Counted from the stretch's first letter, positions 6,822 to 24,000 are shown. The stretch is 24,000 bases of DNA from Syntrophomonadaceae bacterium (GCA_028706315.1 JAQWBP010000018.1:1-24000), one strand, 5' to 3'. Numbers and translations: made by a program. The notes: a model not told the origin generated them from the letters alone.

Positions 6822-6922
6822 TACCTTAGTATGCCTATTAAAGCTATGCAAAAGACTTGCTTACTGAAGGTGGAATAATACATTTATGATAAATAATGTT
6901 AACATTAATGGGAGGTGATAGT

Positions 6923-9663: not shown

Positions 9664-9700
9664 AACCAATAACAATTTCTTTCAAAGGGAGGTGAGAAGT

Positions 9701-10252
9701 TTGTCAGTAATGGAATCCACTGCAACCATGGCTAAACGGGGTCTAGTAATGGTAATTACGGGTAACGGTAAAGGTAAAACAACAGCTGCATTTGGTCAGG
9801 CCTTAAGGGCTGTTGGCCAGGGATACCGGGTATGCATAATTCAGTTTATGAAGGGACGCAAATATGGAGAGGTTTTAGCGATAGAAAAGCATCTTCCTGG
9901 TATTACGTTTTATCAATTTGGTCTGGATAGTTTTGTAATGCGGGATAATCCAGCTCCTGTGGATGTTGAATTGGCCCGGCAAGGTTTCGAAAAAGCAAAA
10001 GAAGTAATAGGTAGTGGAGAATATAACATGGTCATCCTGGATGAGATTAATGTTGCTGTTGATTTCAATCTAATTCCAGAGGAAGAAATGTTAAGTTTGA
10101 CTAGAAGTAAACCGGCTGAGCTAGATCTATTATTAACGGGTCGATATGCTTCAGATAAGTTGAAAGAGATAGCTGATTTAGTAAGTGAAGTTACCGAGAT
10201 AAAACACCATTATAATGCAGGTATTAAGGATCGAGCCGGGATAGAATACTAG
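9701..10252 (+). CDS. cobO: Cob(I)yrinic acid a,c-diamide / cob(I)alamin adenosyltransferase (CobA/CobO/BtuR family)
   Basis: Family pattern GNGKGKTTAAFGQALRAxGQG...QFMKG...ILDEIN...TGR. The GTG at 9692 overlaps the GGGAGG RBS, so TTG at 9701 (8-nt spacing) is preferred. ATG at 9710 is an alternative. Confidence 0.88.
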   Translation: MSVMESTATMAKRGLVMVITGNGKGKTTAAFGQALRAVGQGYRVCIIQFMKGRKYGEVLAIEKHLPGITFYQFGLDSFVMRDNPAPVDVELARQGFEKAKEVIGSGEYNMVILDEINVAVDFNLIPEEEMLSLTRSKPAELDLLLTGRYASDKLKEIADLVSEVTEIKHHYNAGIKDRAGIEY

Positions 10253-10313
10253 CCTGGTAAAAATGAAATATGTAATTAATTTATTGGCAAGAAAAGATTG
10301 GAGGGAGTAGCGA

Positions 10314-11996
10314 TTGTTTACTAAGGAATTATTAGATAAATCTAGTTTGCTAAGGAAAAAGTGGGAAGATGAAGTTAAAAAAGTAGTTGCAAAACATGCT
10401 GACCAAAAAGAAGAGTGGTCCACCGTTTCTAGTTTAAATATAAAAAGAATATATGGTCCTGAAGATATCAAAGATATGGATTTTGAGAAGGATATAGCGT
10501 ATCCAGGACAATTTCCATATTTGAGAGGTAATCAGGCTACAGGTTACCGCGGGAAATATTGGACATTTAGGATGTTCTCGGGTATGGGTACAGCGGTAGA
10601 AACTAACAAACGCTGGCATTATCTATTAACTACAGGTCAGACTGGTCTAAGTACTGCTTTCGATTTTCCTACCCTTATGGGTTATGATACTGATTCCCCC
10701 AAAGCTAAGGGTGAATGTGGGAAATGCGGAGTAGCTATAGACACCATAGATGATTTCAGAGACCTCATCAACGGAGTTCCTCTCGATAAAATAACTACAT
10801 CGATGACAATTAATCCTCCGGCAACAGCATTATGGGCCATGTACTGTGCATCAGCAGAGCAACAGGGAATACCCCTTAACAAAATAGGTGGTACCATCCA
10901 GAATGATATGTTAAAAGAATTTATTGCCCAGAAAACCCTTATGTGTCCACCTGAGCCATCGGTAAAGTTAATCAGTGATACGATTGAGTTCGGAACCAAA
11001 TATGTTCCGAGATGGAATACCATTAGCATAAGTGGGTATCACATAAGAGAAGCTGGAGCGACGGCTGTTCAGGAACTGGCATTTACATTAAGAGATGGTA
11101 TGGAATACGTCGAGGATGCTATTAGACGTAAAGGCTTGCATGTTGATGAATTTGCTCCTAGATTATCTTTCTTCTTTAATTCCCATATTGATTTCTTTGA
11201 AGAAATTGCCAAGCTGAGGGCTGCTCGTAGGATATGGGCTAAGGCTATGCCGGAACGTTATGGTTCTAAGGATCCTCGGTCCTGGTGGATGAGATTCCAT
11301 ACGCAGACTGCTGGATGTTCCCTTACAGCTCAGCAACCATACAACAATGTGGTTAGGACGGCTACTGAGGCGTTGGCAGCTGTTCTTGGAGGAACTCAGT
11401 CACTGCATACCAATTCTTTGGATGAGGTATTGTGCCTGCCTTCAGATCATGCAGTGCAAATAGCTTTGAGAACCCAGCAACTGATTGCTGAGGAAACGGG
11501 TGTATGTAATACTATTGATCCATTAGCCGGTTCATATTTTGTTGAAGCACTTACTAATGAAATGGAAGAAAAGGCATGGGAATATATTCATAAAATCGAT
11601 GATATGGGTGGAATGGTTGCAGCTATAGAAAAAGGGTTCCCACAGATGGAAATTTCCGATGCTGCTTATAAATTCCAACAACAAATAGATGCCAAGGAAA
11701 AGATTATGATTGGTGTGAATAAGTATGTCGAAGCCGATGAACAAATTGAAATTCCATTGCTGGAGATAGATGACTCGGTTGAGGATGAGCAGCTCGAACG
11801 TTTAGCAGCAGTAAAGAGGAAACGTGATGGCCGCAAAGTAGCAGAATGCCTTAATGAACTTGCAGGTGCATGTAAAAAAGGTGAAAATGTTATGCCTTAT
11901 TGTATCGAGGCAGTTAAGAATTACGCTACAGTTCAAGAAATCTGCGACGTCTACAGGGAAGTTTACGGTGAATACCGTGATCCTGGAATATACTAA
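10314..11996 (+). CDS. Adenosylcobalamin-dependent acyl-CoA mutase, large (substrate-binding) subunit, with an isobutyryl-CoA-mutase-like active-site signature
   Basis: TTG start 7 nt after GGAGGGA. The product aligns by eye along its full length with methylmalonyl-CoA mutase (GLSTAFDFPT, GVAIDT, GTIQNDMLKEF, SISGYHIREAGA, LRTHTQTAG-like, SLHTNSLDE). Phe replaces MCM Tyr89 (FRMFSGM) and Gln replaces Arg207 (IAQK). Confidence 0.95.
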   Translation: MFTKELLDKSSLLRKKWEDEVKKVVAKHADQKEEWSTVSSLNIKRIYGPEDIKDMDFEKDIAYPGQFPYLRGNQATGYRGKYWTFRMFSGMGTAVETNKRWHYLLTTGQTGLSTAFDFPTLMGYDTDSPKAKGECGKCGVAIDTIDDFRDLINGVPLDKITTSMTINPPATALWAMYCASAEQQGIPLNKIGGTIQNDMLKEFIAQKTLMCPPEPSVKLISDTIEFGTKYVPRWNTISISGYHIREAGATAVQELAFTLRDGMEYVEDAIRRKGLHVDEFAPRLSFFFNSHIDFFEEIAKLRAARRIWAKAMPERYGSKDPRSWWMRFHTQTAGCSLTAQQPYNNVVRTATEALAAVLGGTQSLHTNSLDEVLCLPSDHAVQIALRTQQLIAEETGVCNTIDPLAGSYFVEALTNEMEEKAWEYIHKIDDMGGMVAAIEKGFPQMEISDAAYKFQQQIDAKEKIMIGVNKYVEADEQIEIPLLEIDDSVEDEQLERLAAVKRKRDGRKVAECLNELAGACKKGENVMPYCIEAVKNYATVQEICDVYREVYGEYRDPGIY

Positions 11997-12022
11997 TTTA
12001 ATGTTCGAAGGAGGTAAATTTA

Positions 12023-12427
12023 ATGTCAGATAGAAGAATTCGTATACTGCTAGCTAAACCCGGGCTTGATGGTCATGATCGTGGGGCTAGGGTACTGGCC
12101 AGATGTTTCCGCGATGCCGGTTTTGAGGTAATTTATACTGGTTGTCACCAAACTCCAGAGCAAATAGCTTCTGCTGCTGTTCAGGAAGATGTTGACGTTG
12201 TTGGCTTAAGCTGTTTGTCAGGTGCACATAAATATCTATTTCCTCAAGTAGCCAAGCTTTTACAGGATGAAGGAGCTGGCGATATTATGGTTATAGGGGG
12301 AGGAATAATTCCTGACCAGGATATGCAGGCTTTATATGAAGCTGGTCTAAAGGCAATTTTTACTCCGGGGGCCACCCTTGATTCATTGGTGGAATGGATA
12401 AATACAAATGTAAAACCAAGGGCGTGA
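12023..12427 (+). CDS. Acyl-CoA mutase small subunit (cobalamin-binding domain)
   Basis: GAAGGAGG RBS. The product begins RILLAKPGLDGHDRGA with the DxHxxG base-off/His-on motif, continues through VGLSxLSGAH and GGxIP, and is 134 aa long. Confidence 0.93.
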   Translation: MSDRRIRILLAKPGLDGHDRGARVLARCFRDAGFEVIYTGCHQTPEQIASAAVQEDVDVVGLSCLSGAHKYLFPQVAKLLQDEGAGDIMVIGGGIIPDQDMQALYEAGLKAIFTPGATLDSLVEWINTNVKPRA

Positions 12428-12432
12428 GCATT

Positions 12433-13407
12433 ATGAAAGAATTAGGCAAAAAGGTTTTGGCGGGAGACATTCGTGCGGCCTCCCGCCTCATAAGAAATCT
12501 GGAAGACCAAATACCTGAAACTAATATCGCAATGCGAGAAATTTTTGCCCATACCGGGAATTCCCATGTGATTGGGATTACCGGAGCACCGGGAGCCGGT
12601 AAAAGTACACTCACAGATGAGCTTATCGATGCTTACCGTAAGAAAGATAAGACTGTAGGAGTACTGGCTGTTGATCCGACCAGTCCTTTTACCGGGGGTG
12701 CACTTTTGGGAGACAGAATCCGTATGCTGCGGCATGCGGAGGACAAAGGTGTATTCGTAAGGAGCTTGGCAACAAGAGGTGCGATGGGTGGAATATCTAA
12801 GGCTGTCGGTGAAGGAATCCATGTAATGGACGTATTGAAAAAAGATAAAATAATAGTCGAAACTGTTGGCGTGGGGCAGCAAGAGGTAGAAATCATTAAT
12901 CATGCTCACACGGTAATAGTTGTTCTTGTACCAGGTATGGGGGATGAAATACAAGCTCTCAAAGCGGGCTTAATGGAAATAGCCGATATTTTTGTAATCA
13001 ATAAGGCGGATCGGGATGGTGCGGGGAAACTCTATAAGGAAACACTAAATATGGTGAAGATGTCTAAGGACATGGGGGATAATGGTAGTTGGACCATACC
13101 CGTACTTCTGGTAGAAAATGTCCTTGAACCAAATAAATTTGCTGAAAGTGTCAAAGCTTTAAGTGATAAGATAGACGAACATTATCAATATTTAGTTGAC
13201 AATAATCTTTTGTCTGAGCGCATGCGCCGTAAGACGGCAGCTGAGGTTAATGAGGCACTTTGGGGAAATATACTTCAACCAGTATTAAGTGATCTGCATT
13301 CACAGGGGGAAATGGAAAAGATGGTTGATAAAGTATTGAGCAGACAAACTGATCCATATACCCTGGCTGAAGAAATAGCTAGTAGGTACATTAAAAAGCA
13401 AGCGTAG
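12433..13407 (+). CDS. meaB: MeaB/ArgK-type G-protein metallochaperone for the mutase
   Basis: GITGAPGAGKSTL P-loop, VDPTSPFTGGALLGDR, ETVGVGQ and the NKADRDG (NKxD) motif. ATG at 12433 lies just after the small-subunit stop. The 12394 start in the ORF track would overlap the previous gene by 34 nt. GTG at 12424 is an alternative. Confidence 0.93.
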   Translation: MKELGKKVLAGDIRAASRLIRNLEDQIPETNIAMREIFAHTGNSHVIGITGAPGAGKSTLTDELIDAYRKKDKTVGVLAVDPTSPFTGGALLGDRIRMLRHAEDKGVFVRSLATRGAMGGISKAVGEGIHVMDVLKKDKIIVETVGVGQQEVEIINHAHTVIVVLVPGMGDEIQALKAGLMEIADIFVINKADRDGAGKLYKETLNMVKMSKDMGDNGSWTIPVLLVENVLEPNKFAESVKALSDKIDEHYQYLVDNNLLSERMRRKTAAEVNEALWGNILQPVLSDLHSQGEMEKMVDKVLSRQTDPYTLAEEIASRYIKKQA

Positions 13408-15874: not shown

Positions 15875-16291
15875 ATGGTGCGGTTATTTAAAGCTTGGTC
15901 GATAGTAGATAACTTTTATGAGAAGGATCAGGTATTGCTTAACTGGTTTGTAGTAGGCAGGCAAACACCAATAGCTCCTTATGAAGAACTAGTTGATAAT
16001 TATGATGAAAATGAGGATGAGGTCTGGTGTGATCATCTACTGGTAAATGAATTTTTTACTGAACCGGAAATAGAGGGATTAAGGGATTATCTTCTGGAAT
16101 TTCATGAGCTTGAGGTTCGGGTAGAAGAAGTATCGTTGCCGGTGTGTTCCGGGGGGCTAAGTTATAGTCTCCTGCTGATAAATGGTGCGAAGGATTTTTA
16201 TCCTTTAGCTGATGAAAAGGAATATAAGCTCGATATATCTGTCCTGGGGCATTTTGATTTGGAAGAAGAGGTTCAAATGAGAAGACAGTAA
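15875..16291 (+). CDS. Hypothetical acidic protein (138 aa)
   Basis: AGGAGGAACAACT precedes the ATG, and a TATAAT-like hexamer lies ~35 nt upstream. The composition is strongly acidic (runs of D/E). I recognise no family. Confidence 0.6.
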   Translation: MVRLFKAWSIVDNFYEKDQVLLNWFVVGRQTPIAPYEELVDNYDENEDEVWCDHLLVNEFFTEPEIEGLRDYLLEFHELEVRVEEVSLPVCSGGLSYSLLLINGAKDFYPLADEKEYKLDISVLGHFDLEEEVQMRRQ

Positions 16292-16302: not shown

Positions 16303-16515
16303 ATGAAAATTGGAGATAGGGTGATAATAAGTGAACCTAGGCACCCATTATTTCAATATAAAGGTATGCTAGTAGGTTTCCGCGGTGAAGGAAAACCTGG
16401 AGATATATGGTTGCTAATTTTAGTTGACCTCTATAATCGAAGTTATCTTGTTCCACAATCTATGGTGGAATTAATACCAGAGGAGAATGATACGAACAAT
16501 AACGAAGAGCTCTAA
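16303..16515 (+). CDS. Hypothetical small protein (70 aa) with a KOW/SH3-like N-terminal pattern
   Basis: AAGGAG RBS 11 nt after the previous stop suggests translational coupling. The pattern MKIGDRVIIS...YKGMLVGF resembles small SH3/KOW-like beta-barrel proteins. The assignment is weak. Confidence 0.55.
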   Translation: MKIGDRVIISEPRHPLFQYKGMLVGFRGEGKPGDIWLLILVDLYNRSYLVPQSMVELIPEENDTNNNEEL

Positions 16516-16560
16516 AATATAGCTTTATCTAACTTGAGATGCCTAAACTTAATATATTAT

Positions 16561-16730
16561 GTACAGCGGGTTCTTTGTGTAATGGCAAAGAACTAGGGAA
16601 CCAGGTGAAAAACCTGGACGGTCGCGCCACTGTAAGCGGGGAGCATGTTTCCACTTTGCCACTGGGCTTTAAGCCTGGGAAGGCGGAAACAGGCAAAGAG
16701 CCGCAAGTCAGGAAACCTAACCGTTGTGCC
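16561..16730 (+). promoter_or_regulatory. Cobalamin (B12) riboswitch aptamer
   Basis: Conserved cobalamin-riboswitch blocks appear in the correct order: AGGGAA, CCAGGTGAAAAACCTGG, GCGCCACTGTAAGCGGGGA, GCCACTGGG...CCTGGGAAGGCGG and the B12-box-like AGTCAGGAAACC. A candidate P1 pairs ACAGCGG (16563-16569) with CCGTTGT (16721-16727). A TTGAGA ... TATATTAT promoter-like stretch lies at 16534-16560. Confidence 0.9.
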
Positions 16731-16770
16731 GCACGTGATACCTTCGCAGGAAAGGAGGAGTGCTTACGTA

Positions 16771-16818
16771 AAGTAAAAGCTTCAACTTAACTGTAAAAAA
16801 GTTGAAGCTTTTACTTTT
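16771..16818 (+). terminator. Riboswitch expression-platform terminator
   Basis: Perfect 18-bp stem AAGTAAAAGCTTCAACTT (16771-16788) / AAGTTGAAGCTTTTACTT (16799-16816) with a 10-nt loop, ending in a TTTT run. Confidence 0.9.
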
Positions 16819-16961: not shown

Positions 16962-19900
16962 GTGAAGAAAAAACTAAGTTTTTTAATAATAGTGACTTTT
17001 CTATTAACAGCTTTTTTTACTGTCCCTGTACTTGGGGCAGATAATCTATCAGTCGAAGATTCACTAAAAGAAATTGTTTCTTATTACGAAAATAGCAAAA
17101 CTACCTTAGATAATTGGGAGGAAGTAGTTGGATTAGCGAATGCTGATGTAGATTTATCGGCTGAACCATGGCAATTACCTGATTGGCAGGTGGATTCATT
17201 AAATGAAAATTCTAACCCCACAGAATATGCAAAAGTAATTTTAGGAATGCGGGCAGCTAAACAAGATTCAACAAATGTAAATGGCAGGAACCTTGTTAAT
17301 GAACTGGCTGCTAAACAAGAAGTAACTGGGAATTTTGGTGAGTATATTACCGATACTATATGGTCTATGGTTGCTTTGGATACAGCCGGTAAAACTTATG
17401 ATGTATCCGGTGCTGTAGATTACCTATTAAATAAGCAGACAAGTGATGGAGGATTTGCTTTTAGCGGAGACATAGCTGATCCGGATATGACTGGTTTTAC
17501 CTTAATTGCGCTTGCATCTCATATGAATGTGGAAAGTGTTAATGACGTTGTTTATCAGGCAGAAGAATGTTTGAAATCTATTCAATTAGACAGTGGCGGA
17601 TTTGGCTATGGTGGTGGTGATGCAGAAAATTCTGCGTCAAGTGCTGCTGTTATTAGAGGATTAGTTGCCTGTAATAAAGACATTACATCGTCTGAATGGA
17701 CTAAAAATGGTAATTCAATGATTGATGCTCTTTTTGAATTTCAATTACCTAATAAATCTTTTTCCCATCTAGGTAGCGAAACTAGTGACTTATCTACCAG
17801 ACAAGCTTTGATAGCTATTACTGAATTAATAAGTAATGGTTTTGGTAATTACATAATAAGTGGAACAGTTCCTGTTAGTGCTCCGGAGGAACCTACTGTT
17901 CAAATTGAGGTCACAGTTAGAGTAGAAGGATTAGAAGACACGGGTACGATATTGGACGAAACACTAGTAAACATAGATTCAGACAGCAGGGTCTTTGATG
18001 CCTTAAAGCAAGCATTAGATGATGCCGGGGTAAGTAATAGTATAAATACTGCAGCAGAGTGGTTATCAATAGATGATATTTCTATAGATACGGCGGCAGA
18101 GATAAGTGAAAATTTCTATTGGATGTATACGGTAAATGACAATTTAAACACAGATACTAATCCTGTGTTAAACCAGGGAGATGCCATAACTGTATATTTA
18201 ATAAAGTATCCTACCACTTTTTATGCAAAATTATCTCTAAGTAAAGAAGAAGTTAATAAGGGCGAAAAGGTAAAAGCAGTAGTAAACAAATCAGATGGAG
18301 GATGGCCAGCAAATTATATTCCTGCAGACGGAGTACAAGTACATTTTGGGGATGAAATCTATATCACAGATGAAAATGGTGAAGTTGAAGTTACTATACA
18401 GACTGCTGGAACATTCAAGGTATATGCTGATAAATATGACGAATCGGGAATACCAGGGATAGTAAAGACAGCAAGTAAGACGCTAGTAGTAAAGGAAAAT
18501 AGCTCTAATCCAGGATCTACAGAAACTGGTATAACTGTAAAAATTGCTATTTTAGGAAAACAGGGTAATCTATTATATGGTCCTGGCAGTGTAATTATTT
18601 CTAAGAATGACAGTTATGGGCAAACTGCAATGAGTGCACTGGATGCTACTAGCTTAAACTGGACGATTTCCAATACCTGGGATGGCTTAGTTACTGAAAT
18701 AGCAGGTGAAGAAAATGAAGGTATGAATGGGTGGATGTATTCAATTAATAATAATAGCGCTTGGGATGTTCCCCAAAATGCAAGTGTTTCTAACGGAGAT
18801 AAAGTTTTGTTCTGGTACAGTATGGATGCGATGGAAAAGGGGCCAACTTGGAACGATGTAGAAAATTTATCAAAGGGGAATTTAGAAAATACAACAAACG
18901 TAATTAAGGATGAAAAAAAAGTTAAAGAAAGGTTAACCAGCTATATTGAGGAAATTACAGCGTTGAGTAAAACCAAAGCTTTAAATGCAGACAACCAGAT
19001 GACCCAGAAAGAGGCCAATAAAATAAAATCAGAACTGGCAGATAACACAGTTAACCTGAGTAAAGAAGTAGGGAAAGCAGAGGCTGTAATAGCAGATACG
19101 GAAGTATCTATGCTGGTACCGGAAAATGCACTTTCACAGACTAAAAGTTTAACTATTAAAGAATTAGCTGCTAATAAAGAAACTCAACAGTTCGCGGTCA
19201 AATTAGGATCATCAATTTATGAATTTGGTCCCAGCGGAACAAAATTTGACAAACCAGTAACTATTAGTCTTGCAATAGCCATAACTGAGGATATGGATAT
19301 TGAAAATCTGACTCCGGCCTGGTATGACGAGGTCAACAAACAGTGGATTCCTATTCCGGGTGTTATAGATCTTAAAACAGGTTTAGTAGTATTTCAAATT
19401 GACCATTTTACTAAGTTTGCTGTAATTGATTTACCAGATATTTTACCGGAAATTTTACCAGAACTTTTACCAGACAGAGTCACTTTTACTGATGTAGGTG
19501 AGAATATATCTTGGGCCCAAGATGCCATAGAAATTCTGGCCGGGAAGGGAATTATTAATGGTACAGGGCAGGGATTGTTTGAACCACAAAGATGCATAAG
19601 CAGAGCAGAATTCGTTCAGCTGATAGTAACATCTCTACAACTAAAATCCGAAGAGTATGACGGCTTATTTAGCGATGTGGATTCTTCAAACTGGTTTGCA
19701 GGTGCCGTGGCAAGTGCATCAAATAATAAAATTGTCTCAGGATATCCTGAGGGTACTTTCAAGCCTAACAATAGTATAAGTAGAAACGAAGTTGCCAGCA
19801 TTTTTTATTATTTAGAAGGTACTAAAAAGAGTAGCAATGATGTTAACCTGGTTTTTTCCGATTTGGATAATATACCTAAATGGGCGGCAGATGGAGTTAA

Positions 19901-20027
19901 TTATGTTCATACACAGGGACTAATGCAGGGCTATGAAGATGAAACATTTAGAGGAAATGATCCATTAAGCAGAGCCGAAGCAGCTGTTGTTCTCTACAAA
20001 TACCTTAACTCTGTTTCCAGTATTTAA
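16962..20027 (+). CDS. Secreted, SLH-anchored multidomain protein: alpha/alpha-toroid (prenyltransferase-like) repeats, two DUF4430 (transcobalamin-like C-terminal) domains, Ig-like modules and three SLH domains
   Basis: GTG start 7 nt after AGGAG. Signal peptide MKKKLSFLIIVTFLLTAFFTVPVLGA. Repeats of the Q..DGGF type (NKQTSDGGFAF, IQLDSGGFGYG) span aa ~30-295. Two segments (aa ~315-413 and ~524-620) have the DUF4430 pattern (V.V.I.G....L........T..DAL........G....I.G......W.Y.VN......GD.V.F.Y). Three C-terminal SLH repeats begin FTDV..., FSDV... and FSDL... (aa ~840-1021). Confidence 0.9.
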   Translation: MKKKLSFLIIVTFLLTAFFTVPVLGADNLSVEDSLKEIVSYYENSKTTLDNWEEVVGLANADVDLSAEPWQLPDWQVDSLNENSNPTEYAKVILGMRAAKQDSTNVNGRNLVNELAAKQEVTGNFGEYITDTIWSMVALDTAGKTYDVSGAVDYLLNKQTSDGGFAFSGDIADPDMTGFTLIALASHMNVESVNDVVYQAEECLKSIQLDSGGFGYGGGDAENSASSAAVIRGLVACNKDITSSEWTKNGNSMIDALFEFQLPNKSFSHLGSETSDLSTRQALIAITELISNGFGNYIISGTVPVSAPEEPTVQIEVTVRVEGLEDTGTILDETLVNIDSDSRVFDALKQALDDAGVSNSINTAAEWLSIDDISIDTAAEISENFYWMYTVNDNLNTDTNPVLNQGDAITVYLIKYPTTFYAKLSLSKEEVNKGEKVKAVVNKSDGGWPANYIPADGVQVHFGDEIYITDENGEVEVTIQTAGTFKVYADKYDESGIPGIVKTASKTLVVKENSSNPGSTETGITVKIAILGKQGNLLYGPGSVIISKNDSYGQTAMSALDATSLNWTISNTWDGLVTEIAGEENEGMNGWMYSINNNSAWDVPQNASVSNGDKVLFWYSMDAMEKGPTWNDVENLSKGNLENTTNVIKDEKKVKERLTSYIEEITALSKTKALNADNQMTQKEANKIKSELADNTVNLSKEVGKAEAVIADTEVSMLVPENALSQTKSLTIKELAANKETQQFAVKLGSSIYEFGPSGTKFDKPVTISLAIAITEDMDIENLTPAWYDEVNKQWIPIPGVIDLKTGLVVFQIDHFTKFAVIDLPDILPEILPELLPDRVTFTDVGENISWAQDAIEILAGKGIINGTGQGLFEPQRCISRAEFVQLIVTSLQLKSEEYDGLFSDVDSSNWFAGAVASASNNKIVSGYPEGTFKPNNSISRNEVASIFYYLEGTKKSSNDVNLVFSDLDNIPKWAADGVNYVHTQGLMQGYEDETFRGNDPLSRAEAAVVLYKYLNSVSSI
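19428..19475 (+). repeat. Four tandem 12-bp repeats encoding a (D/E)(I/L)LP x4 linker
   Basis: GATTTACCAGAT ATTTTACCGGAA ATTTTACCAGAA CTTTTACCAGAC encodes DLPD ILPE ILPE LLPD. It lies in frame between the body of the protein and the SLH anchor. Confidence 0.9.
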
Positions 20028-20129: not shown

Positions 20130-21293
20130 GTGAAAAATAGATTATTATGCCTAGTATTGACCGTATTTTTAATATGGATGGCGGTTACCATTTCTGGTTG
20201 CAGCACTAATAAAACTAATGATAATAGCATATCTGTCAATGGCAGTTCTGTTACAACAGATAAAGCAAAGGGTAAAACTAATGATGAAAAAATTAAAATA
20301 GAAACACAAGAACAAGCGTCACAGGGAGAAAGTAAGGAAAATAAAGTTGATAATGAAAGAAATGCTATTACTCCAAGCCATGACAGTGTTGCGCAAAATA
20401 CATCTAATCAGGCTGGTAAAACAACTAGTACTAATGACATGGTAACTCTATTTATAACCAAAGATTTTGGGGTTCAAATTTTAGTTGAAAAACAGGTAGC
20501 AATTAACAAAAATTGGACAATTATTGATCTTCTAGCATCGGTTTCAGAAATAGATACTAAATGGAATGGCGGTTTTATAAATAGTATTGACGGACTGGAA
20601 TCTAATAACGGTGGTATGTCAGGCAAAAGATTCGACTGGTTTTACTATATAAATGGAATTTGTTCTGATGTAGGGGCTGCGGAATATGACTTGAAGGCTG
20701 GGGAAGTAGTTTGGTGGGATTATCATGACTGGAAAAGCATGGGATCTACTAATTCAGCAGTTATCGGCTGCTATCCGGAACCATTTGTGCGCGGTTACCG
20801 GGGTAAGATCGGAGCAACAACAGTTATGAGTTCCGCAGATAATCAGAGTCTAGCCACTGACCTGCAAAAAGCGCTGAAAGTGAAGGGAGTCCGTTCTGTT
20901 AATGTCAAGGAATTAGATAATAATGTACTGGAAAACAGACAGGTACCTACGATTGTTATAGGTACGTGGAATGAAGTTAAACAGCTTTCCTGGCTGGAAA
21001 AGTTTAATAATGCCTATAGAAAAACAGGTACCAGTGTTCATTTTACTGATAAAGGGTTAGAACTGCTGGATCATAGTGGAGCAGTAGCTCAGATGATTGA
21101 TAAAAGTGCTGGTGTTATAGTTGCTGCTGGATCAGGCCTGGGAGATACTAGTCCCCTCTGGATGCTTGTTGGTACTGATCAGGAAGGTTTAAAGCAGGTA
21201 GTAGATATACTAGTTAATAAACCGGAGGAAATTTCTAGATTATATAATGCGGCAGTAGTTTCAGGAAAAGTTATCAGATTGCCATTACAGTAA
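20130..21293 (+). CDS. Lipoprotein with a DUF4430 (transcobalamin-like) domain and an uncharacterised C-terminal domain
   Basis: GTG start after AAGGGGGA. The signal peptide has a lipobox (LIWMAVTISG-C, Cys24) and is followed by a low-complexity linker. A DUF4430-like segment spans aa ~105-201 (VTLFITKDFG...TIIDLL...GFINSIDGL...WFYYINGI...AGEVVWWDY). Confidence 0.8.
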   Translation: MKNRLLCLVLTVFLIWMAVTISGCSTNKTNDNSISVNGSSVTTDKAKGKTNDEKIKIETQEQASQGESKENKVDNERNAITPSHDSVAQNTSNQAGKTTSTNDMVTLFITKDFGVQILVEKQVAINKNWTIIDLLASVSEIDTKWNGGFINSIDGLESNNGGMSGKRFDWFYYINGICSDVGAAEYDLKAGEVVWWDYHDWKSMGSTNSAVIGCYPEPFVRGYRGKIGATTVMSSADNQSLATDLQKALKVKGVRSVNVKELDNNVLENRQVPTIVIGTWNEVKQLSWLEKFNNAYRKTGTSVHFTDKGLELLDHSGAVAQMIDKSAGVIVAAGSGLGDTSPLWMLVGTDQEGLKQVVDILVNKPEEISRLYNAAVVSGKVIRLPLQ

Positions 21294-21313: not shown

Positions 21314-22228
21314 ATGCTTGTGTATCGGGAGAAGGATAATTTAATTCATAAATTGCATCCCTTTACCATTGTAGCTTTTGTTGGAGTAGTTTTTATTTTA
21401 TCTTTGGTTCTTTCTCATCCTGTTTACCTGTTAGGCTTGTTTCTGGCAGTGGGAGTAGTTATTATTGCTGCTGGGCATCTCAAGGAATGGAAGGTTTATC
21501 TTAAGTTTAGCATTATTATGATAATAATAATTATGATTATCAATGCTATTTTTGCTCAGGTAGGAGAGACAGTATTATTCATAGGTCCGCGGATTCCTGT
21601 ATTAGGGAAGATTAAAATAACCATGGAAGCTTTAGCATTTGGGGCAGGGATGGGTGTACGGCTGCTGGTTATCATCAGTGCGTTCTGTCTTTATACTTAT
21701 GCAGTGCACCCGGATAAGGTGTTAAAACTATTTAGCAAATGGGGTAATAAGTCGGTTATTGTTATAACTTTATCTACCCGTCTACTTCCTCTAATGGTTG
21801 GGGATTATTTGAGAATAACCGAGGTACAGCGCTGTCGGGGAGTAAAATTAGATACTGGTAGATGGTGGGAACGTGCCAAAAATATACTACCAGTAGTTAG
21901 CGTAATTTTGATATCCTGCCTCGAGCGTTCCTTACAGTTGGCTGAATCTATGCATGCCCGCGGTTATGGTAGTGGGTTTAGAACCTATTATACTCGAGAA
22001 TTGTGGCGCCCCAGAGACTATATAATCCTTACGGCATTATTTATTAGTTTCATAACCGGGGTATGGGCTGCTTTGCAGGGTTGGTCTAATTATAGCTACT
22101 ATCCCCGGCTGTCGGTAATTAATCTGGGAGAAATAAAAGCAGCAAGTATTGTGGTATTAACATTAATGATTCCTGCCATTCTTAATTGGGGGTGGAAGAA
22201 ATGTCCGTTATTAAAATCAAAGATCTGA
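21314..22228 (+). CDS. ECF transporter transmembrane (T) component, CbiQ/EcfT family
   Basis: Polytopic membrane protein with the characteristic N-terminal LHKLHPFT and the two coupling-helix motifs (ITEVQRCRG and ESMHARGYGSG). Confidence 0.88.
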   Translation: MLVYREKDNLIHKLHPFTIVAFVGVVFILSLVLSHPVYLLGLFLAVGVVIIAAGHLKEWKVYLKFSIIMIIIIMIINAIFAQVGETVLFIGPRIPVLGKIKITMEALAFGAGMGVRLLVIISAFCLYTYAVHPDKVLKLFSKWGNKSVIVITLSTRLLPLMVGDYLRITEVQRCRGVKLDTGRWWERAKNILPVVSVILISCLERSLQLAESMHARGYGSGFRTYYTRELWRPRDYIILTALFISFITGVWAALQGWSNYSYYPRLSVINLGEIKAASIVVLTLMIPAILNWGWKKCPLLKSKI

Positions 22229-23901
22229 ATTATTGGTATCCCGATACCCAAAAGCCATCATTAGATAGAATTAATTTAGAAATTCCCGAGGGGCAGTTTG
22301 TTCTAGTAGTAGGGGGTTCCGGTAGTGGCAAGTCGACTTTGGTTCGTGCTATAGCTGGCTTGATTCCTGAATTTTATGGTGGCACTTATGGAGGAAAGGT
22401 TTATATAGATGATAATGAAGTCAAAGCAATTGATCGGCGTAGTCTGATTCAAGAGGTAGGAATGGTTTTTCAGAATCCGGAGAGCCAGTTGGTAATGACT
22501 AATGTAGAACAAGAGATAGCTTTTGGTTTGGAAAACCTAGGTTTACCTAACGGACTTATGAAACGCAGGGTGATGGAGGTTACCAGTGCTCTAGGCTTAT
22601 CAGATTACTTACATAGTTTTATTCCGGAATTATCAGGAGGACAAAAACAGAAAGTAGCTCTAGCTTCAGTTTTGGCCATGCAGCCGAATATACTTTTATT
22701 GGATGAACCTACTTCCCAGTTGGATCCTATTGCTGGTGAAGATATTTTAAACATGATAAGACGATTGAATGAGGAAAATGGTATTACGGTGGTTCTAATT
22801 GAGCAGCGTTTGGAAAGGTGTTTTCATCTGGCTGACAGGATACTAGTTATGGATAAAGGACAGATTGTTTATGACCATCATGCCCCGGAGGCGATAGCTC
22901 ACTGGGCAGTGAAAACCACTACTCCTTTTATACCCCCGCTGGTCCAATTGTTTGCCAGTATAGGATATCCGGAAATACCGGTAACAGTTAAGCAGGGAAG
23001 GCGTATTCTTAAATCCTATTATCTACCTAGCAATTTAAATGCACAAAGGTCAGTTACTTTAGCAAAAAAATCAGAAGTTATGGAAGTAAGCCGAGAAGAA
23101 TGCTTAGTGGATATTAAGAATCTCTGGTTTACTTACTCCAATGGTGAAGAAGTTCTAAAGAATATAAATCTTAAAATTAAGCCAGACGATTTTATGGTGT
23201 TAATGGGGGAAAATGGGGCTGGGAAAACCACTCTCATGAGAAATATAAACGGCTTGCTTAAACCTAGCAGAGGAAAGGTTAATGTTTTAGAAAAAGAGAC
23301 TAAAAATTTATCCGTAGAAGAACTTGCATCTGATGTTGCTTATCTATCCCAAGATCCTAATGATTACTTGTTCCTGCCTACTGTTCAAGAAGAACTTACT
23401 TTTACGTTAAATAACCTGGGTCTTGCAGATGACGGAATTAGTCAAGAAATTATGACCCAGCTAAAGCTAACTCCTCATGCAGAAGTAAATCCCCGGGATT
23501 TAAGCACCGGGGAACGCCAGAGAGTAGCCCTAGCTTCCGTTCTGGTAACCAGACCCAAATTACTATTACTGGACGAACCTACTCGCGGACTGGATTACCT
23601 TTTAAAAGATGAACTTGGGAAAATCCTGTTGCAGTTTCAGGCAGAAGGAACTGCCATTCTCATTATTACCCATGATGTGGAATTTGCTGCTGAATATGCT
23701 GAAAAGATTGTATTGATGGCTGACGGGACTATAATTGCTCAAGGAAACAAATATGAGATGCTTACCAACTCTACGTTTTATTCACCCCAGATTAGTAAGT
23801 TGTTCAATAATATAGCCGATGGCGTAGTAACAATTGATCAAGGTAAAGAGGTATTAAGGAAGATAATGGAATTCAATAAAAATGAAGTTCTTTCCGTTTA
23901 G
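22201..23901 (+). CDS. Fused tandem ABC ATPase of an ECF transporter (EcfA-EcfA', CbiO-like)
   Basis: Two complete nucleotide-binding domains. Walker A: GGSGSGKST and GENGAGKTT. Signature: LSGGQKQKV and LSTGERQRV. Walker B: LLLDEPTS and LLLDEPTRG. ATG at 22201 follows GGGGGTGG and overlaps the T-component gene by 28 nt. Confidence 0.95.
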   Translation: MSVIKIKDLNYWYPDTQKPSLDRINLEIPEGQFVLVVGGSGSGKSTLVRAIAGLIPEFYGGTYGGKVYIDDNEVKAIDRRSLIQEVGMVFQNPESQLVMTNVEQEIAFGLENLGLPNGLMKRRVMEVTSALGLSDYLHSFIPELSGGQKQKVALASVLAMQPNILLLDEPTSQLDPIAGEDILNMIRRLNEENGITVVLIEQRLERCFHLADRILVMDKGQIVYDHHAPEAIAHWAVKTTTPFIPPLVQLFASIGYPEIPVTVKQGRRILKSYYLPSNLNAQRSVTLAKKSEVMEVSREECLVDIKNLWFTYSNGEEVLKNINLKIKPDDFMVLMGENGAGKTTLMRNINGLLKPSRGKVNVLEKETKNLSVEELASDVAYLSQDPNDYLFLPTVQEELTFTLNNLGLADDGISQEIMTQLKLTPHAEVNPRDLSTGERQRVALASVLVTRPKLLLLDEPTRGLDYLLKDELGKILLQFQAEGTAILIITHDVEFAAEYAEKIVLMADGTIIAQGNKYEMLTNSTFYSPQISKLFNNIADGVVTIDQGKEVLRKIMEFNKNEVLSV

Positions 23902-23971: not shown

Positions 23972-24000
23972 ATGAAAAGCAATTTTCTTACGGTTATTAT
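23972..24000 (+). CDS. Start of a further co-directional gene, truncated by the window edge (possibly a membrane protein)
   Basis: ATG at 23972 lies 7 nt after GAGGGA and encodes MKSNFLTVI... Only 9 codons are visible, so this is speculative. Confidence 0.3.

What the first reader, a model, noticed from the sequence alone, without database searches (positions are those of the whole stretch)
16962..20027. A bacterial S-layer-anchored protein that recapitulates the two-domain plan of eukaryotic B12 carriers (alpha/alpha toroid plus beta domain), with the beta domain duplicated
Eukaryotic intrinsic factor, transcobalamin and haptocorrin sandwich B12 between an N-terminal alpha6/alpha6 barrel and a C-terminal beta domain.

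This ORF has the following parts after its signal peptide:
- About 265 aa with Q..DGGF-type repeats typical of alpha/alpha-toroid (prenyltransferase/terpene-cyclase-like) folds.
- A DUF4430-like beta domain (nt ~17904-18200).
- An Ig-like spacer.
- A second DUF4430-like domain (nt ~18531-18821).
- A further beta-sandwich-like module.
- A proline linker and three SLH repeats.

The arrangement suggests one complete transcobalamin-like binding unit plus an extra beta domain, displayed on the cell wall. It may be an evolutionary relative of, or a convergent solution to, the animal carriers.
Basis: partly seen in the sequence, partly recalled or inferred. Interest (0 to 1): 0.75.

Follow-up and report, generated by a model that had tools for sequence, protein, structure and literature searches.

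The report
Cell-wall-anchored B12-capturing surface protein
This gene encodes a cell-wall-anchored surface protein, controlled by a vitamin-B12-sensing RNA switch and built from the same two domain types as animal B12 carriers, that most likely catches B12-type cofactors for the import pump encoded next to it; bacterial proteins of this kind were already predicted in 2007, so it is a clear but ordinary example.

Summary
ORF 16962-20027 (1021 aa) has these parts:
- signal peptide
- alpha/alpha toroid (prenyltransferase/terpene-cyclase type)
- divergent DUF4430/SLBB domain
- Ig/PKD-like domain
- canonical DUF4430/SLBB domain
- two helices
- ZU5-like beta-sandwich
- Pro linker
- three SLH repeats

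A cobalamin riboswitch (16551-16738) lies directly upstream, and one is present upstream in all 14 related loci examined. The gene heads an operon with a second SLBB lipoprotein and ECF-T and ECF-AA' genes. In orthologous loci a CbrT-like S component follows.

Structure comparisons:
- Foldseek ranks transcobalamin and intrinsic factor first for toroid+SLBB1.
- SLBB2 matches the human transcobalamin beta domain (TM 0.73).
- The two-domain superposition is poor (rmsd 12-14 A).
- By sequence the toroid groups with terpene cyclases and prenyltransferases, not the eukaryotic Cobalamin_bind family.
- It is unresolved which SLBB pairs with the toroid.

The idea is not new. Burroughs et al. 2007 described bacterial toroid+SLBB surface proteins in CbiQ/CbiO operons as B12 scavengers and possible donors of the animal carriers.

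The 'further beta-sandwich' is a ZU5 autopeptidase-type module. Its H-F-T motif is nearly invariant, which suggests self-cleavage.

Verdict: a new member of a known, biochemically untested kind. Interest about 0.3.

The parts
16551..16738 (+). Cobalamin riboswitch aptamer (RF00174)
   Evidence: Rfam gives 116.5 bits, E 5.9e-29, with the full model matched. The same element lies upstream of the homologous gene in all 14 other loci examined.
16770..16817 (+). 19-bp perfect hairpin followed by a U-rich tract. Probably the terminator-type expression platform of the riboswitch (inferred).
   Evidence: The RNA fold gives -33 kcal/mol, z = -5.9 against shuffles. The simple terminator scan did not call it; the hairpin's 10-nt loop is longer than the 3-8 nt that scan allows.
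16962..20027 (+). Whole ORF, 1021 aa: SLH-anchored toroid-SLBB-Ig-SLBB-ZU5 surface protein
16962..17036 (+). Sec signal peptide (MKKKLSFLIIVTFLLTAFFTVPVLG|A)
   Evidence: Read directly from the sequence. Homologues share the same N-terminal pattern.
17037..17861 (+). Alpha/alpha toroid with Q..DGGF-type repeats
   Evidence: Pfam Prenyltrans scores 31.5 bits. AF2 pLDDT is mostly above 90. PDB profile hits are drimenyl-diphosphate synthase and squalene-hopene cyclase, down to 3e-12, and the single sequence hits RabGGTase beta at 5e-4. There is no DxDD motif in the sequence.
17895..18233 (+). SLBB1: a divergent DUF4430/transcobalamin-like beta-grasp domain
   Evidence: Pfam DUF4430 gives E 0.0036, 18.2 bits, below the cut-off. 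hhalign against the SLBB2 family gives 96% probability, E 2e-9. AF2 pLDDT is below 50 over protein aa 358-398.
18234..18500 (+). Ig/PKD-like beta-sandwich spacer
   Evidence: AF2 predicts an all-beta domain with pLDDT about 85. Foldseek matches collagenase PKD-like domains at TM about 0.7.
18525..18869 (+). SLBB2: a canonical DUF4430/transcobalamin-like beta domain
   Evidence: Pfam gives 34.7 bits, E 2.5e-8. Foldseek matches the human TC beta domain 5no0 (TM 0.73, rmsd 3.1 A) and the R. gnavus DUF4430 protein 3u7z (TM 0.67).
18909..19043 (+). Two-helix segment preceding the ZU5 module. It travels with that module in relatives.
   Evidence: AF2 secondary structure. The segment is co-matched with ZU5 in many of the 150 listed representative proteins, whose matches begin within query residues 1-45, the helical segment.
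19053..19430 (+). ZU5-like beta-sandwich (autopeptidase type). The H815-F816-T817 motif is at nt 19404-19412, in the turn before the last strand.
   Evidence: Pfam ZU5 gives 29.5 bits. Foldseek matches 3f59_C (TM 0.68) and 4d8o (E 1.8e-7). The motif is kept in 10 of 10 SLH-anchored homologues. Among 148 representative relatives, H is kept in 144, F in 144 and T/S/C in 146.
19431..19481 (+). Proline-rich linker (LPDILPEILPELLPDRV)
   Evidence: Read directly from the sequence; AF2 pLDDT is below 50 here.
19482..19994 (+). Three SLH repeats (cell-wall anchor)
   Evidence: Pfam SLH gives E 1.1e-39 with 3 stretches. The PDB search matches Sap SLH 3pyw at 1e-12.
20130..21293 (+). Second SLBB protein, 387 aa. 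It has a lipoprotein-type signal (..TISG|C) and a 183-aa C-terminal domain with no family match.
   Evidence: Pfam DUF4430 gives E 5e-14. The C-terminal part has no Pfam hit at E <= 10. The gene is conserved at this position in L001, L002 and L004.
21314..22228 (+). ECF transporter T component (CbiQ family)
   Evidence: Pfam CbiQ gives E 1.9e-16.
22186..23901 (+). Fused ECF A-A' ATPase
   Evidence: NCBIfam ECF_ATPase_1 scores 408 bits and ECF_ATPase_2 scores 397 bits, both above their cut-offs.
23972..24000 (+). First 9 codons (MKSNFLTVI) of the next gene, probably the CbrT-like S component, cut by the window end
   Evidence: The N-terminus resembles those of the S components in L001 and L002. 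The L001 S component matches CbrT of 6FNP at E 1.4e-11. This assignment is inferred.

Best explanation
The ORF encodes a corrinoid (vitamin B12 family) capture protein displayed on the cell wall. It is the first gene of a cobalamin-riboswitch-controlled uptake operon.

Proposed sequence of events:
1. When intracellular corrinoid is low, the riboswitch lets transcription run past its terminator-like hairpin (inferred).
2. The protein is exported by Sec and anchored to secondary cell-wall polymers by its three SLH repeats (inferred from the domains).
3. Its alpha/alpha toroid and one of its two transcobalamin-type SLBB beta domains bind a corrinoid between them, as transcobalamin does. This is inferred from fold and family; it is not shown, and which SLBB is the partner is unknown.
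4. The ligand is passed inward to the membrane-tethered SLBB lipoprotein encoded next.
5. It then reaches a CbrT-like S component and is imported by the ECF T/A-A' module using ATP.
6. Inside, it can be adenosylated by CobO for the methylmalonyl-CoA-mutase-type enzyme encoded just upstream.

The ZU5 module with its H-F-T motif probably self-cleaves. That would leave the binding ectodomain held non-covalently on the SLH stalk (inferred).
For: - **Regulation:** a full-length cobalamin riboswitch lies 224 nt upstream, followed by a strong hairpin. A cobalamin riboswitch is present on the same strand upstream of the homologous gene in all 14 other distinct loci examined. These span 30-60% identity and a different anchor type, LPXTG.
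- **Operon:** the downstream genes are an SLBB lipoprotein, CbiQ/EcfT and a fused EcfA-A'. Orthologous loci continue with an S component that matches CbrT of the B12/cobinamide transporter 6FNP at E 1.4e-11.
- **Domains:** the toroid is modelled with pLDDT above 90. The top PDB Foldseek hits of toroid+SLBB1 are TC and IF, with alignments through both domains. SLBB2 matches the human TC beta domain with TM 0.73. The same Pfam family, PF14478, matches human TC.
- **Association of the parts:** toroid, SLBB and ECF genes recur together in other covalent arrangements. One is a toroid fused to the S component beside a DUF4430 gene and a PduO-type adenosyltransferase gene. Another is separate alpha-like and beta-like subunits in L. 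sakei.
- **Demand for the cofactor:** CobO, a mutase large subunit, a B12-binding subunit and MeaB lie upstream, in synteny with L002.
- **Prior prediction:** the same prediction was made for this protein class in PMC1796856.
Against: - No binding data exist for any member found in the searched literature.
- The AF2 two-domain model does not superpose on holo-TC (rmsd 12-14 A), and SLBB1 is poorly modelled.
- Terpene cyclases and prenyltransferases match the toroid about as well as TC does (E about 1e-6, TM 0.45-0.5). By sequence they match much better.
- Profile-profile comparison with mammalian TC is not significant.
- The related L. sakei system was linked experimentally to heme, not B12.
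- The S component gene itself is cut off by the window end.
Confidence: 0.75

Rival explanations
1. The protein binds heme or another non-corrin tetrapyrrole and feeds an ECF-type heme importer, as proposed for the L. sakei Lsa1836-1840 system with its transcobalamin-like alpha and beta subunits.
For: The L. sakei operon has the same ingredients (toroid-like protein, SLBB-like protein, ECF module) and was linked to heme uptake. The window also carries iron-related genes (DtxR-FeoA, FeoB) at its start, though these are 13 kb away.
Against: A cobalamin riboswitch precedes this gene and all 14 related loci. The orthologous S component matches CbrT, and hemin did not compete with B12 in CbrT transport. 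AdoCbl-dependent mutase genes lie upstream.
Confidence: 0.05
2. It is a corrinoid binder whose main role is sequestration or competition, or storage at the cell surface, rather than obligatory delivery to the transporter. That would resemble the surface B12-binding lipoproteins of Bacteroides.
For: There are multiple SLBB domains per chain, and many relatives carry three or more. The location is outermost in the envelope. The ZU5 self-cleavage motif could allow release. ECF-CbrT works without accessory proteins in vitro and in E. coli.
Against: The gene is linked tightly and conservatively in one operon with the ECF genes and a membrane-tethered SLBB lipoprotein. That arrangement fits a relay towards the transporter.
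Confidence: 0.12
3. The toroid is not a corrinoid-binding half-site. It would be a glycan-, lipid- or isoprenoid-binding or enzymatic module of the terpene-cyclase/prenyltransferase type, with only the SLBB domains (or neither) contacting the ligand.
For: By sequence the toroid groups with terpene cyclases and prenyltransferase beta subunits. It does not match PF01122. No closed toroid-SLBB arrangement was obtained. Some relatives have an SLBB-ZU5-SLH architecture with no detectable toroid.
Against: The protein is extracellular, so there is no prenyl-diphosphate supply. The sequence has no DxDD motif. Toroid genes recur with ECF S components, even fused to them, and with DUF4430 genes. A distant toroid-only relative (L015) also follows a cobalamin riboswitch.
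Confidence: 0.08

Closest known systems
Bacterial transcobalamin-like SLBB surface proteins fused to an alpha/alpha toroid (Burroughs, Balaji, Iyer and Aravind 2007, PMC1796856)
   Same: Both have a signal peptide and a surface anchor, an N-terminal toroid plus SLBB (that paper cites a Desulfotomaculum example), added Ig domains, an operon with a second SLBB paralogue, and CbiQ-like and CbiO-like genes. A B12-scavenging role is predicted for both.
   Different: That paper, as searched, does not mention SLH anchoring, the riboswitch or the ZU5 module. This protein adds those. The class remains biochemically untested.
Eukaryotic cobalamin carriers: transcobalamin, intrinsic factor, haptocorrin (PF01122 + PF14478)
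   Same: The domain order is alpha/alpha toroid then beta domain. The beta domain belongs to the same Pfam family. TC and IF are the top Foldseek hits. SLBB2 superposes on the TC beta domain.
   Different: The toroid does not match PF01122 and is closer in sequence to prenyltransferases and terpene cyclases. There are two beta domains plus Ig, ZU5 and SLH modules. The protein is wall-anchored, not soluble. The closed sandwich geometry was not reproduced.
L. sakei Lsa1836-1840 ECF-like system with separate transcobalamin-like alpha (Lsa1840) and beta (Lsa1839) subunits (bioRxiv 10.1101/864751)
   Same: An ECF module is combined with extracellular toroid-like and SLBB-like proteins.
   Different: There the alpha and beta parts are separate proteins and the reported substrate is heme. 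Here they are fused, SLH-anchored and under a cobalamin riboswitch.
ECF-CbrT vitamin B12/cobinamide transporter of L. delbrueckii (PDB 6FNP, PMC5997447)
   Same: The T and A-A' components are encoded downstream. The orthologous S component matches CbrT at E 1.4e-11.
   Different: ECF-CbrT was characterised without any extracellular binding protein. Here two SLBB proteins precede the transporter genes, and the S component lies outside the window.
Bacteroides surface B12-binding lipoproteins BtuG and BtuH (from my own knowledge, not tested here)
   Same: Functional analogy: surface-exposed corrinoid capture upstream of a membrane transporter, under riboswitch control.
   Different: The folds are unrelated (BtuG is a beta-propeller), and the setting is a Gram-negative outer membrane with a TonB-dependent transporter.
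ZU5/Nup98/FIIND-type autoproteolytic domains (PMC3210808), and the 'ZU5 autopeptidase' of bacterial surface proteins (bioRxiv 10.1101/2024.03.27.587046)
   Same: The ZU5 fold is present, with an H-F-[S/T] motif in the loop just before the last strand.
   Different: Cleavage is not demonstrated here. The nucleophile is Thr in most relatives. The module sits between a corrinoid-binding ectodomain and an SLH anchor.

Membership tests
Eukaryotic cobalamin carriers (TC/IF/HC) | N-terminal alpha domain matches Pfam PF01122 Cobalamin_bind | tested here: not met
   There is no PF01122 hit even at E <= 10, whereas human TC scores 381 bits. A family profile searched against the PDB finds terpene cyclases but no TC, IF or HC at E <= 10.
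Eukaryotic cobalamin carriers (TC/IF/HC) | C-terminal beta domain of the PF14478 (DUF4430/SLBB) type | tested here: met
   SLBB2 scores 34.7 bits and human TC 25.0 bits against a cut-off of 23.8. Foldseek matches 5no0 with TM 0.73. SLBB1 is below the cut-off at 18.2 bits but is homologous to SLBB2.
Eukaryotic cobalamin carriers (TC/IF/HC) | Toroid and beta domain close around one corrinoid | tested here: inconclusive
   Foldseek alignments to TC and IF span both domains (427-457 columns), but with TM about 0.42 and rmsd 12-14 A. SLBB1 has low pLDDT. No ligand-aware modelling was available.
Eukaryotic cobalamin carriers (TC/IF/HC) | High-affinity corrinoid binding | not testable with these tools
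   This needs biochemistry.
Bacterial transcobalamin-like SLBB/toroid surface proteins (Burroughs et al. 2007) | Secreted or surface-anchored protein with a transcobalamin-clade SLBB domain | tested here: met
   A signal peptide and three SLH repeats are present, together with DUF4430 domains.
Bacterial transcobalamin-like SLBB/toroid surface proteins (Burroughs et al. 2007) | Fusion to an alpha/alpha toroid | tested here: met
   Pfam Prenyltrans scores 31.5 bits, and AF2 models the toroid with pLDDT above 90.
Bacterial transcobalamin-like SLBB/toroid surface proteins (Burroughs et al. 2007) | Operon with a second SLBB paralogue plus CbiQ-like and CbiO-like genes | tested here: met
   Genes at 20130-21293, 21314-22228 and 22186-23901. 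The same order is found in L001, L002 and L004.
ECF-CbrT-type B12 uptake system | EcfT and EcfA/A' components | tested here: met
   CbiQ gives E 1.9e-16. ECF_ATPase_1 and ECF_ATPase_2 score 408 and 397 bits, both above their cut-offs.
ECF-CbrT-type B12 uptake system | CbrT-like S component in the operon | tested here: inconclusive
   Only 9 codons lie inside the window (23972-24000). In the orthologous locus L001 the gene after the ATPase matches 6FNP chain A at E 1.4e-11.
ECF-CbrT-type B12 uptake system | Corrinoid-responsive regulation | tested here: met
   The RF00174 riboswitch scores 116.5 bits upstream and is present in 14 of 14 related loci. This is a sequence match only; ligand response was not tested.
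ZU5-type autopeptidase | ZU5 beta-sandwich fold | tested here: met
   Pfam ZU5 scores 29.5 bits against a cut-off of 21. Foldseek matches ankyrin ZU5 with TM 0.66-0.68.
ZU5-type autopeptidase | H-F-[S/T] (or equivalent) motif in the loop before the last strand | tested here: met
   DHFT lies at aa 814-817, between the last two strands of the model. The motif is HFT in 114, HFS in 24 and HFC in 1 of 148 representative relatives. Its position agrees with PMC3210808.
ZU5-type autopeptidase | Actual self-cleavage | not testable with these tools
   This needs SDS-PAGE or mass spectrometry of the wild-type protein against a T817A mutant.
Class II terpene cyclases / protein prenyltransferase beta subunits (enzymes) | Toroid with QW-/GGF-type repeats | tested here: met
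   Pfam Prenyltrans and SQHop_cyclase_C hits. PDB hits are 7xq4 at 3e-12 and RabGGTase beta at 5e-4.
Class II terpene cyclases / protein prenyltransferase beta subunits (enzymes) | Catalytic DxDD motif and a cytoplasmic or membrane location with isoprenoid substrates | tested here: not met
   The toroid sequence has no D-x-D-D; the nearest is DPDM. The protein carries a signal peptide and SLH anchor, so it is extracellular.

The most novel reading that the evidence does not exclude
The nearly invariant H-F-T site in the ZU5 module self-cleaves. If so, the 790-residue corrinoid-binding ectodomain is only non-covalently plugged into its SLH stalk and can be shed. It could then act as a diffusible 'corrinophore' that is recaptured at the wall or hands its cargo to the SLBB lipoprotein. 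That would be a bacterial carrier-plus-docking system, analogous in logic to secreted IF/TC and their receptors. The SLBB-ZU5-SLH cassette, found in more than 100 protein clusters, would be a general release-and-dock device for cofactor scavenging.
Probability: 0.12. Interest if true: 0.65.

Novelty: new member of a known kind. Interest (0 to 1): 0.3.

Why it matters
How Gram-positive-type bacteria catch scarce corrinoids outside a thick wall is poorly understood. No member of this toroid+SLBB class has published binding data in the literature searched.

This locus is a clean, riboswitch-marked example for testing three things:
- whether the transcobalamin-style two-domain sandwich exists in bacteria;
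- which beta domain partners with the toroid;
- whether the ligand is relayed to an ECF-CbrT transporter.

It also bears on the 2007 proposal that animals acquired their B12 carriers from such bacterial proteins. The data here neither strengthen nor refute that proposal: the beta domain is homologous, and the toroid is related only at fold level. As a discovery it is not new. Its value is as a well-annotated test case.

Tried and rejected
- **Sequence link to animal carriers.** phmmer and family-profile searches of the PDB with the whole protein, the toroid, SLBB1 and SLBB2 found no TC, IF or HC at E <= 10. hhalign of the bacterial family, SLBB1 and SLBB2 profiles against a mammalian TC alignment was not significant. 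The best result was E 0.0021 at 13% probability; SLBB1 against the TC beta domain gave E 0.054 in the expected register. Both profiles were shallow (Neff about 2-2.6), so this is weak negative evidence.
- **Source contig.** Exact look-up of the window protein found nothing on record. The scan of one representative genome per species (GTDB) found only relatives at 56% identity or less, so the source genome is not among those representatives.
- **Terminator.** The simple scan did not call the riboswitch hairpin; folding supports it.
- **Distant loci.** Riboswitch searches in two distant toroid-S-component fusion loci and one archaeal toroid-BtuF-like locus found nothing. The operon 5' ends of the two fusion loci are cut off, so this is inconclusive.
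- **Enzyme reading.** I considered and rejected the toroid as an enzyme: no DxDD motif, and an extracellular location.
- **DPDxT motif.** I considered treating the invariant DPDxT motif as a special ligand site. It aligns with the generic prenyltransferase repeat, so I make no claim.
- **ORF 16539-16790 (83 aa).** It overlaps the riboswitch and has no family hit. I treat it as spurious.
- **Literature.** Searches for experimental work on this class found none.

Full report
**1. The observation**

ORF 16962-20027 (+) is a 1021-aa reading frame. It starts at GTG with an AGGAG ribosome-binding site 7 nt upstream. The N-terminus is a typical Sec signal peptide (KKK, a hydrophobic core, VLG|A).

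Pfam on the whole protein gives:

| Family | Result |
|---|---|
| SLH | 3 repeats, E 1e-39 |
| DUF4430 | aa 553-620, 32.8 bits |
| ZU5 | aa 709-770, 25.9 bits (cut-off 21) |
| Prenyltrans | 26.3 bits (cut-off 26.5) |

Scanning segments separately gives:

| Segment | Result |
|---|---|
| Toroid | Prenyltrans 31.5 bits, plus a weak SQHop_cyclase_C hit |
| First DUF4430 | 18.2 bits, E 0.0036, below the cut-off |
| Second DUF4430 | 34.7 bits |
| ZU5 | 29.5 bits |

Family alignments of the two DUF4430 regions match each other by profile-profile comparison (96% probability, E 2e-9). The first domain is therefore a real but divergent copy. In more distant homologues the first copy looks more canonical.

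Two AlphaFold2 models were built on alignments of homologues.
- **aa 26-425** (mean pLDDT 81, pTM 0.68): a confident helical toroid with pLDDT mostly above 90. It is followed by a beta-grasp-like domain that is poorly modelled; protein aa 358-398 fall below 50.
- **aa 415-845** (mean pLDDT 79): an all-beta Ig-like domain, then a beta-alpha-beta SLBB domain, two long helices, and an all-beta sandwich.

**2. What the domains resemble**

Foldseek of aa 26-425 against the PDB ranks these first:
- human TC (7qbg_C, E 3e-7);
- rat TC (8ixt);
- human intrinsic factor (2pmv_A).

The alignments are 427-457 columns long and run through both domains. However, TM is only about 0.35-0.46 and rmsd 12-14 A. 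The predicted domain arrangement therefore does not reproduce the closed holo-carrier.

Toroid-only hits score about the same (E 1e-6 to 1e-5) with better local fit (TM 0.45-0.5, rmsd 5-6 A). They are drimenyl-diphosphate synthase, the MstE terpene cyclase, RabGGTase beta and squalene-hopene cyclases.

By sequence the toroid clearly sides with the enzymes:
- A family profile hits drimenyl-diphosphate synthase at 3e-12 and squalene-hopene cyclase at 3e-8, and no TC, IF or HC at E <= 10.
- The single sequence hits RabGGTase beta at 5e-4 through the generic GGF...D..T repeat.
- Pfam Cobalamin_bind never matches.
- There is no DxDD motif, and the protein is extracellular, so an enzymatic role is unlikely.

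Foldseek of aa 415-845 gives:

| Region | Match | Score |
|---|---|---|
| Last sandwich | ZU5 domains of ankyrin (3f59_C; 4d8o) | TM 0.68, rmsd 3.1 A; E 1.8e-7 |
| SLBB2 | Isolated human TC beta domain (5no0; 5np4 with cyanocobalamin) | TM 0.73, rmsd 3.1 A |
| SLBB2 | R. gnavus DUF4430 protein 3u7z | TM 0.67 |
| SLBB2 | Haptocorrin 4kki | among the listed hits |
| Spacer | PKD-like domains | TM about 0.7 |

As a control I checked a human TC sequence against the PDB; it is identical to 7qbf_A. I then scanned it with Pfam. It gives Cobalamin_bind (381 bits) plus DUF4430 (25.0 bits, above the cut-off).

The beta domains of this protein and of TC therefore belong to one curated sequence family. 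The toroids are related only at fold level. Direct profile-profile comparison of the small bacterial family with mammalian TC was not significant.

**3. Context**

Rfam finds one element in the window: a full-length cobalamin riboswitch at 16551-16738 on the same strand (116.5 bits, E 6e-29). It is followed by a 19-bp perfect hairpin with a U-rich tail at 16770-16817 (-33 kcal/mol, z -5.9). The ORF starts 224 nt after the aptamer.

Downstream on the same strand:
- 20130-21293: a 387-aa protein with a lipoprotein-type signal (TISG|C), a DUF4430 domain (E 5e-14) and an unassigned 183-aa C-terminal domain.
- 21314-22228: a CbiQ/EcfT gene.
- 22186-23901: a fused EcfA-A' ATPase, with NCBIfam ECF_ATPase_1 and ECF_ATPase_2 above their cut-offs.
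- 23972-24000: the last 29 nt of the window begin another ORF (MKSNFLTVI). Its N-terminus resembles those of ECF S components in related loci.

Related loci:
- **L001** (Syntrophomonadaceae MAG, 60% identity) has the same gene order, then a 235-aa S component. That S component matches chain A of 6FNP at E 1.4e-11.
- 6FNP is the L. delbrueckii ECF-CbrT transporter. It imports cobalamin and cobinamide, and hemin does not compete (PMC5997447).
- **L001 and L002** also carry a second, shorter toroid-SLH protein and a second S component.

Upstream in the window lie these genes, in the same order as in L002:
- CobO adenosyltransferase;
- a methylmalonyl-CoA-mutase-family large subunit;
- a B12-binding subunit;
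- MeaB.

**4. Relatives**

The word-indexed search with aa 26-640 found about a dozen full-length relatives of about 1000 aa at 37-60% identity. Ten carry SLH anchors and two carry Cu_amine_oxidN1-type anchors. It also found:
- an LPXTG-anchored variant in which SLBB domains precede the toroid;
- a 721-aa Desulfotruncus protein;
- many toroid-only hits, several of them fused to ECF S components and one to a BtuF-like Peripla_BP_2 domain.

A scan of one genome per species found 11 loci. They come from Syntrophomonadaceae, Syntrophomonas, Candidatus Formimonas warabiya, Desulfotruncus, a Thermoanaerobacteraceae MAG and one distant actinomycete.

A cobalamin riboswitch lies upstream on the same strand in every one of the 14 distinct loci examined besides the window. 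In L006 it heads a longer operon. L001 and L007 have two.

In two distant loci the toroid is fused to the S component. It sits behind DUF4430, CbiQ and ABC genes and beside a PduO-type adenosyltransferase gene. No riboswitch was seen there, but the 5' ends of those operons are cut off.

Toroid, SLBB and ECF genes therefore recur as a set in several covalent arrangements.

**5. The ZU5 module (off the original finding)**

The sandwich at aa 698-823 ends with D-H-F-T (aa 814-817), in the turn before the last strand. The motif is kept as DHF[T/S] in all 10 SLH-anchored homologues. It is degenerate in the two homologues with another anchor.

An exhaustive HMMER search with aa 650-840 found 1232 cluster representatives at E <= 1e-3 and 150 at E <= 1e-10. 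Among 148 of the best 150:
- H is kept in 144;
- F in 144 (L in the other 4);
- T, S or C in 146.

Among all 150:
- 126 have SLH repeats, and in 114 these follow the module;
- 117 have an SLBB domain;
- in 109 of those 117 an SLBB lies within 120 residues upstream of the module.

Pfam scans of eight that my first filter called toroid-less showed divergent toroids in seven. Several have the order toroid-Ig-SLBB-ZU5-SLH with a single SLBB.

HF|S before the last strand is the autoproteolytic site of Nup98, PIDD and ZU5-like FIIND domains (PMC3210808). A 'ZU5 autopeptidase' in processed bacterial surface proteins has already been noted in passing (bioRxiv 10.1101/2024.03.27.587046).

I infer likely self-cleavage between F816 and T817. 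That would leave the ectodomain attached non-covalently to the SLH stalk. This is untested.

The SLBB next to ZU5 (his 'extra' domain) is the conserved one in the wider family. The toroid-adjacent SLBB1 may therefore be the lineage-specific addition.

**6. Mechanism**

Best explanation (confidence about 0.75): a riboswitch-controlled, wall-anchored corrinoid receptor that feeds an ECF-CbrT-type importer through a membrane-tethered SLBB lipoprotein.

Shown here:
- the domain identities;
- the presence of the riboswitch and its conservation;
- the operon composition;
- the fold matches.

Inferred:
- ligand identity;
- the sandwich geometry;
- the relay order;
- self-cleavage.

Rivals, treated in the structured fields: heme or another tetrapyrrole, sequestration rather than delivery, and a toroid that is not a binding half-site.

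**7. Comparison with what is known, and novelty**

Burroughs, Balaji, Iyer and Aravind (2007, PMC1796856) defined the SLBB superfamily and described:
- bacterial transcobalamin-clade SLBB proteins with signal peptides;
- fusion to alpha/alpha toroids, N-terminal in a Desulfotomaculum example;
- extra Ig domains;
- operons with a second SLBB paralogue and with CbiO-like and CbiQ-like genes;
- a predicted role in scavenging B12 or its precursors;

The L. sakei study modelled separate alpha-like and beta-like subunits on haptocorrin and TC, and linked that ECF system to heme.

This protein is a new member of that kind. In the papers searched I found no biochemical or structural test of any bacterial toroid+SLBB protein. 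The library lacks most subscription-journal papers.

What this analysis adds is local:
- the consistent riboswitch association;
- the CbrT-type partner;
- the SLBB-ZU5(HFT)-SLH cassette.

**8. Verdict**

| Item | Verdict |
|---|---|
| Observation | confirmed |
| Interpretation | partly supported and not novel |
| Interest | 0.3 |

The most novel reading not excluded is a self-cleaving, releasable corrinoid carrier docked on an SLH stalk (probability about 0.12).

Noticed in passing
window 19053-19430 (motif at 19404-19412): The ZU5-like domain carries an H-F-T motif before its last strand. Among 148 representative relatives H is kept in 144, F in 144 and T/S/C in 146, and the module is usually followed by SLH repeats and preceded by an SLBB domain. 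This suggests autoproteolysis that would leave the ectodomain non-covalently docked on the anchor.
   Followed up: yes
The 83-aa ORF 16539-16790 overlaps the riboswitch and is probably spurious.
   Followed up: yes
window 20742-21293: The C-terminal 183 aa of the SLBB lipoprotein have no Pfam match at E <= 10 and no PDB sequence match. This is an unassigned domain, conserved in position in L001, L002 and L004.
   Followed up: partly
window 23972-24000: A new ORF (MKSNFLTVI...) starts 70 nt after the ATPase stop and is cut by the window end. Its N-terminus resembles ECF S components of related loci.
   Followed up: partly
window 9692-13407: A cluster of CobO adenosyltransferase, a methylmalonyl-CoA-mutase-family large subunit, a B12-binding subunit and MeaB lies upstream. 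With the sigma-54 activator (6896-9040) and MtnA, it is syntenic with locus L002. This gives a local demand for adenosylcobalamin.
   Followed up: partly
L001 9245-11539; L002 14973-17285: Orthologous loci carry a second, shorter toroid+SLH protein (514-517 aa, no DUF4430 hit) followed by a second ECF S component (PF07155/PF12822/DUF6580). This could be a second substrate channel sharing the same ECF module.
   Followed up: no
L001 444-619 and 942-1123; L007 343-520 and 1973-2236: Two cobalamin riboswitch aptamers lie upstream of the homologous gene in two loci. In L001 they are in tandem.
   Followed up: no
L016 4001-5713; L017 4001-5725: In distant relatives the toroid is fused to an ECF S component. 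It sits in operons with DUF4430, CbiQ and ABC genes, next to a PduO-type cobalamin adenosyltransferase gene. No riboswitch was found, but the 5' ends of the operons lie outside the loci.
   Followed up: partly
L018 4001-6007 (Methanoplanus limicola): An archaeal protein fuses a related toroid to a BtuF-like Peripla_BP_2 domain. This is another toroid-transporter-receptor combination.
   Followed up: no
window 15875-16291 and about 16305-16516: Two small ORFs lie between mtnA and the riboswitch; the 138-aa one had no Pfam or NCBIfam match and the smaller one was not scanned. L002 has small unannotated ORFs in the same position.
   Followed up: no
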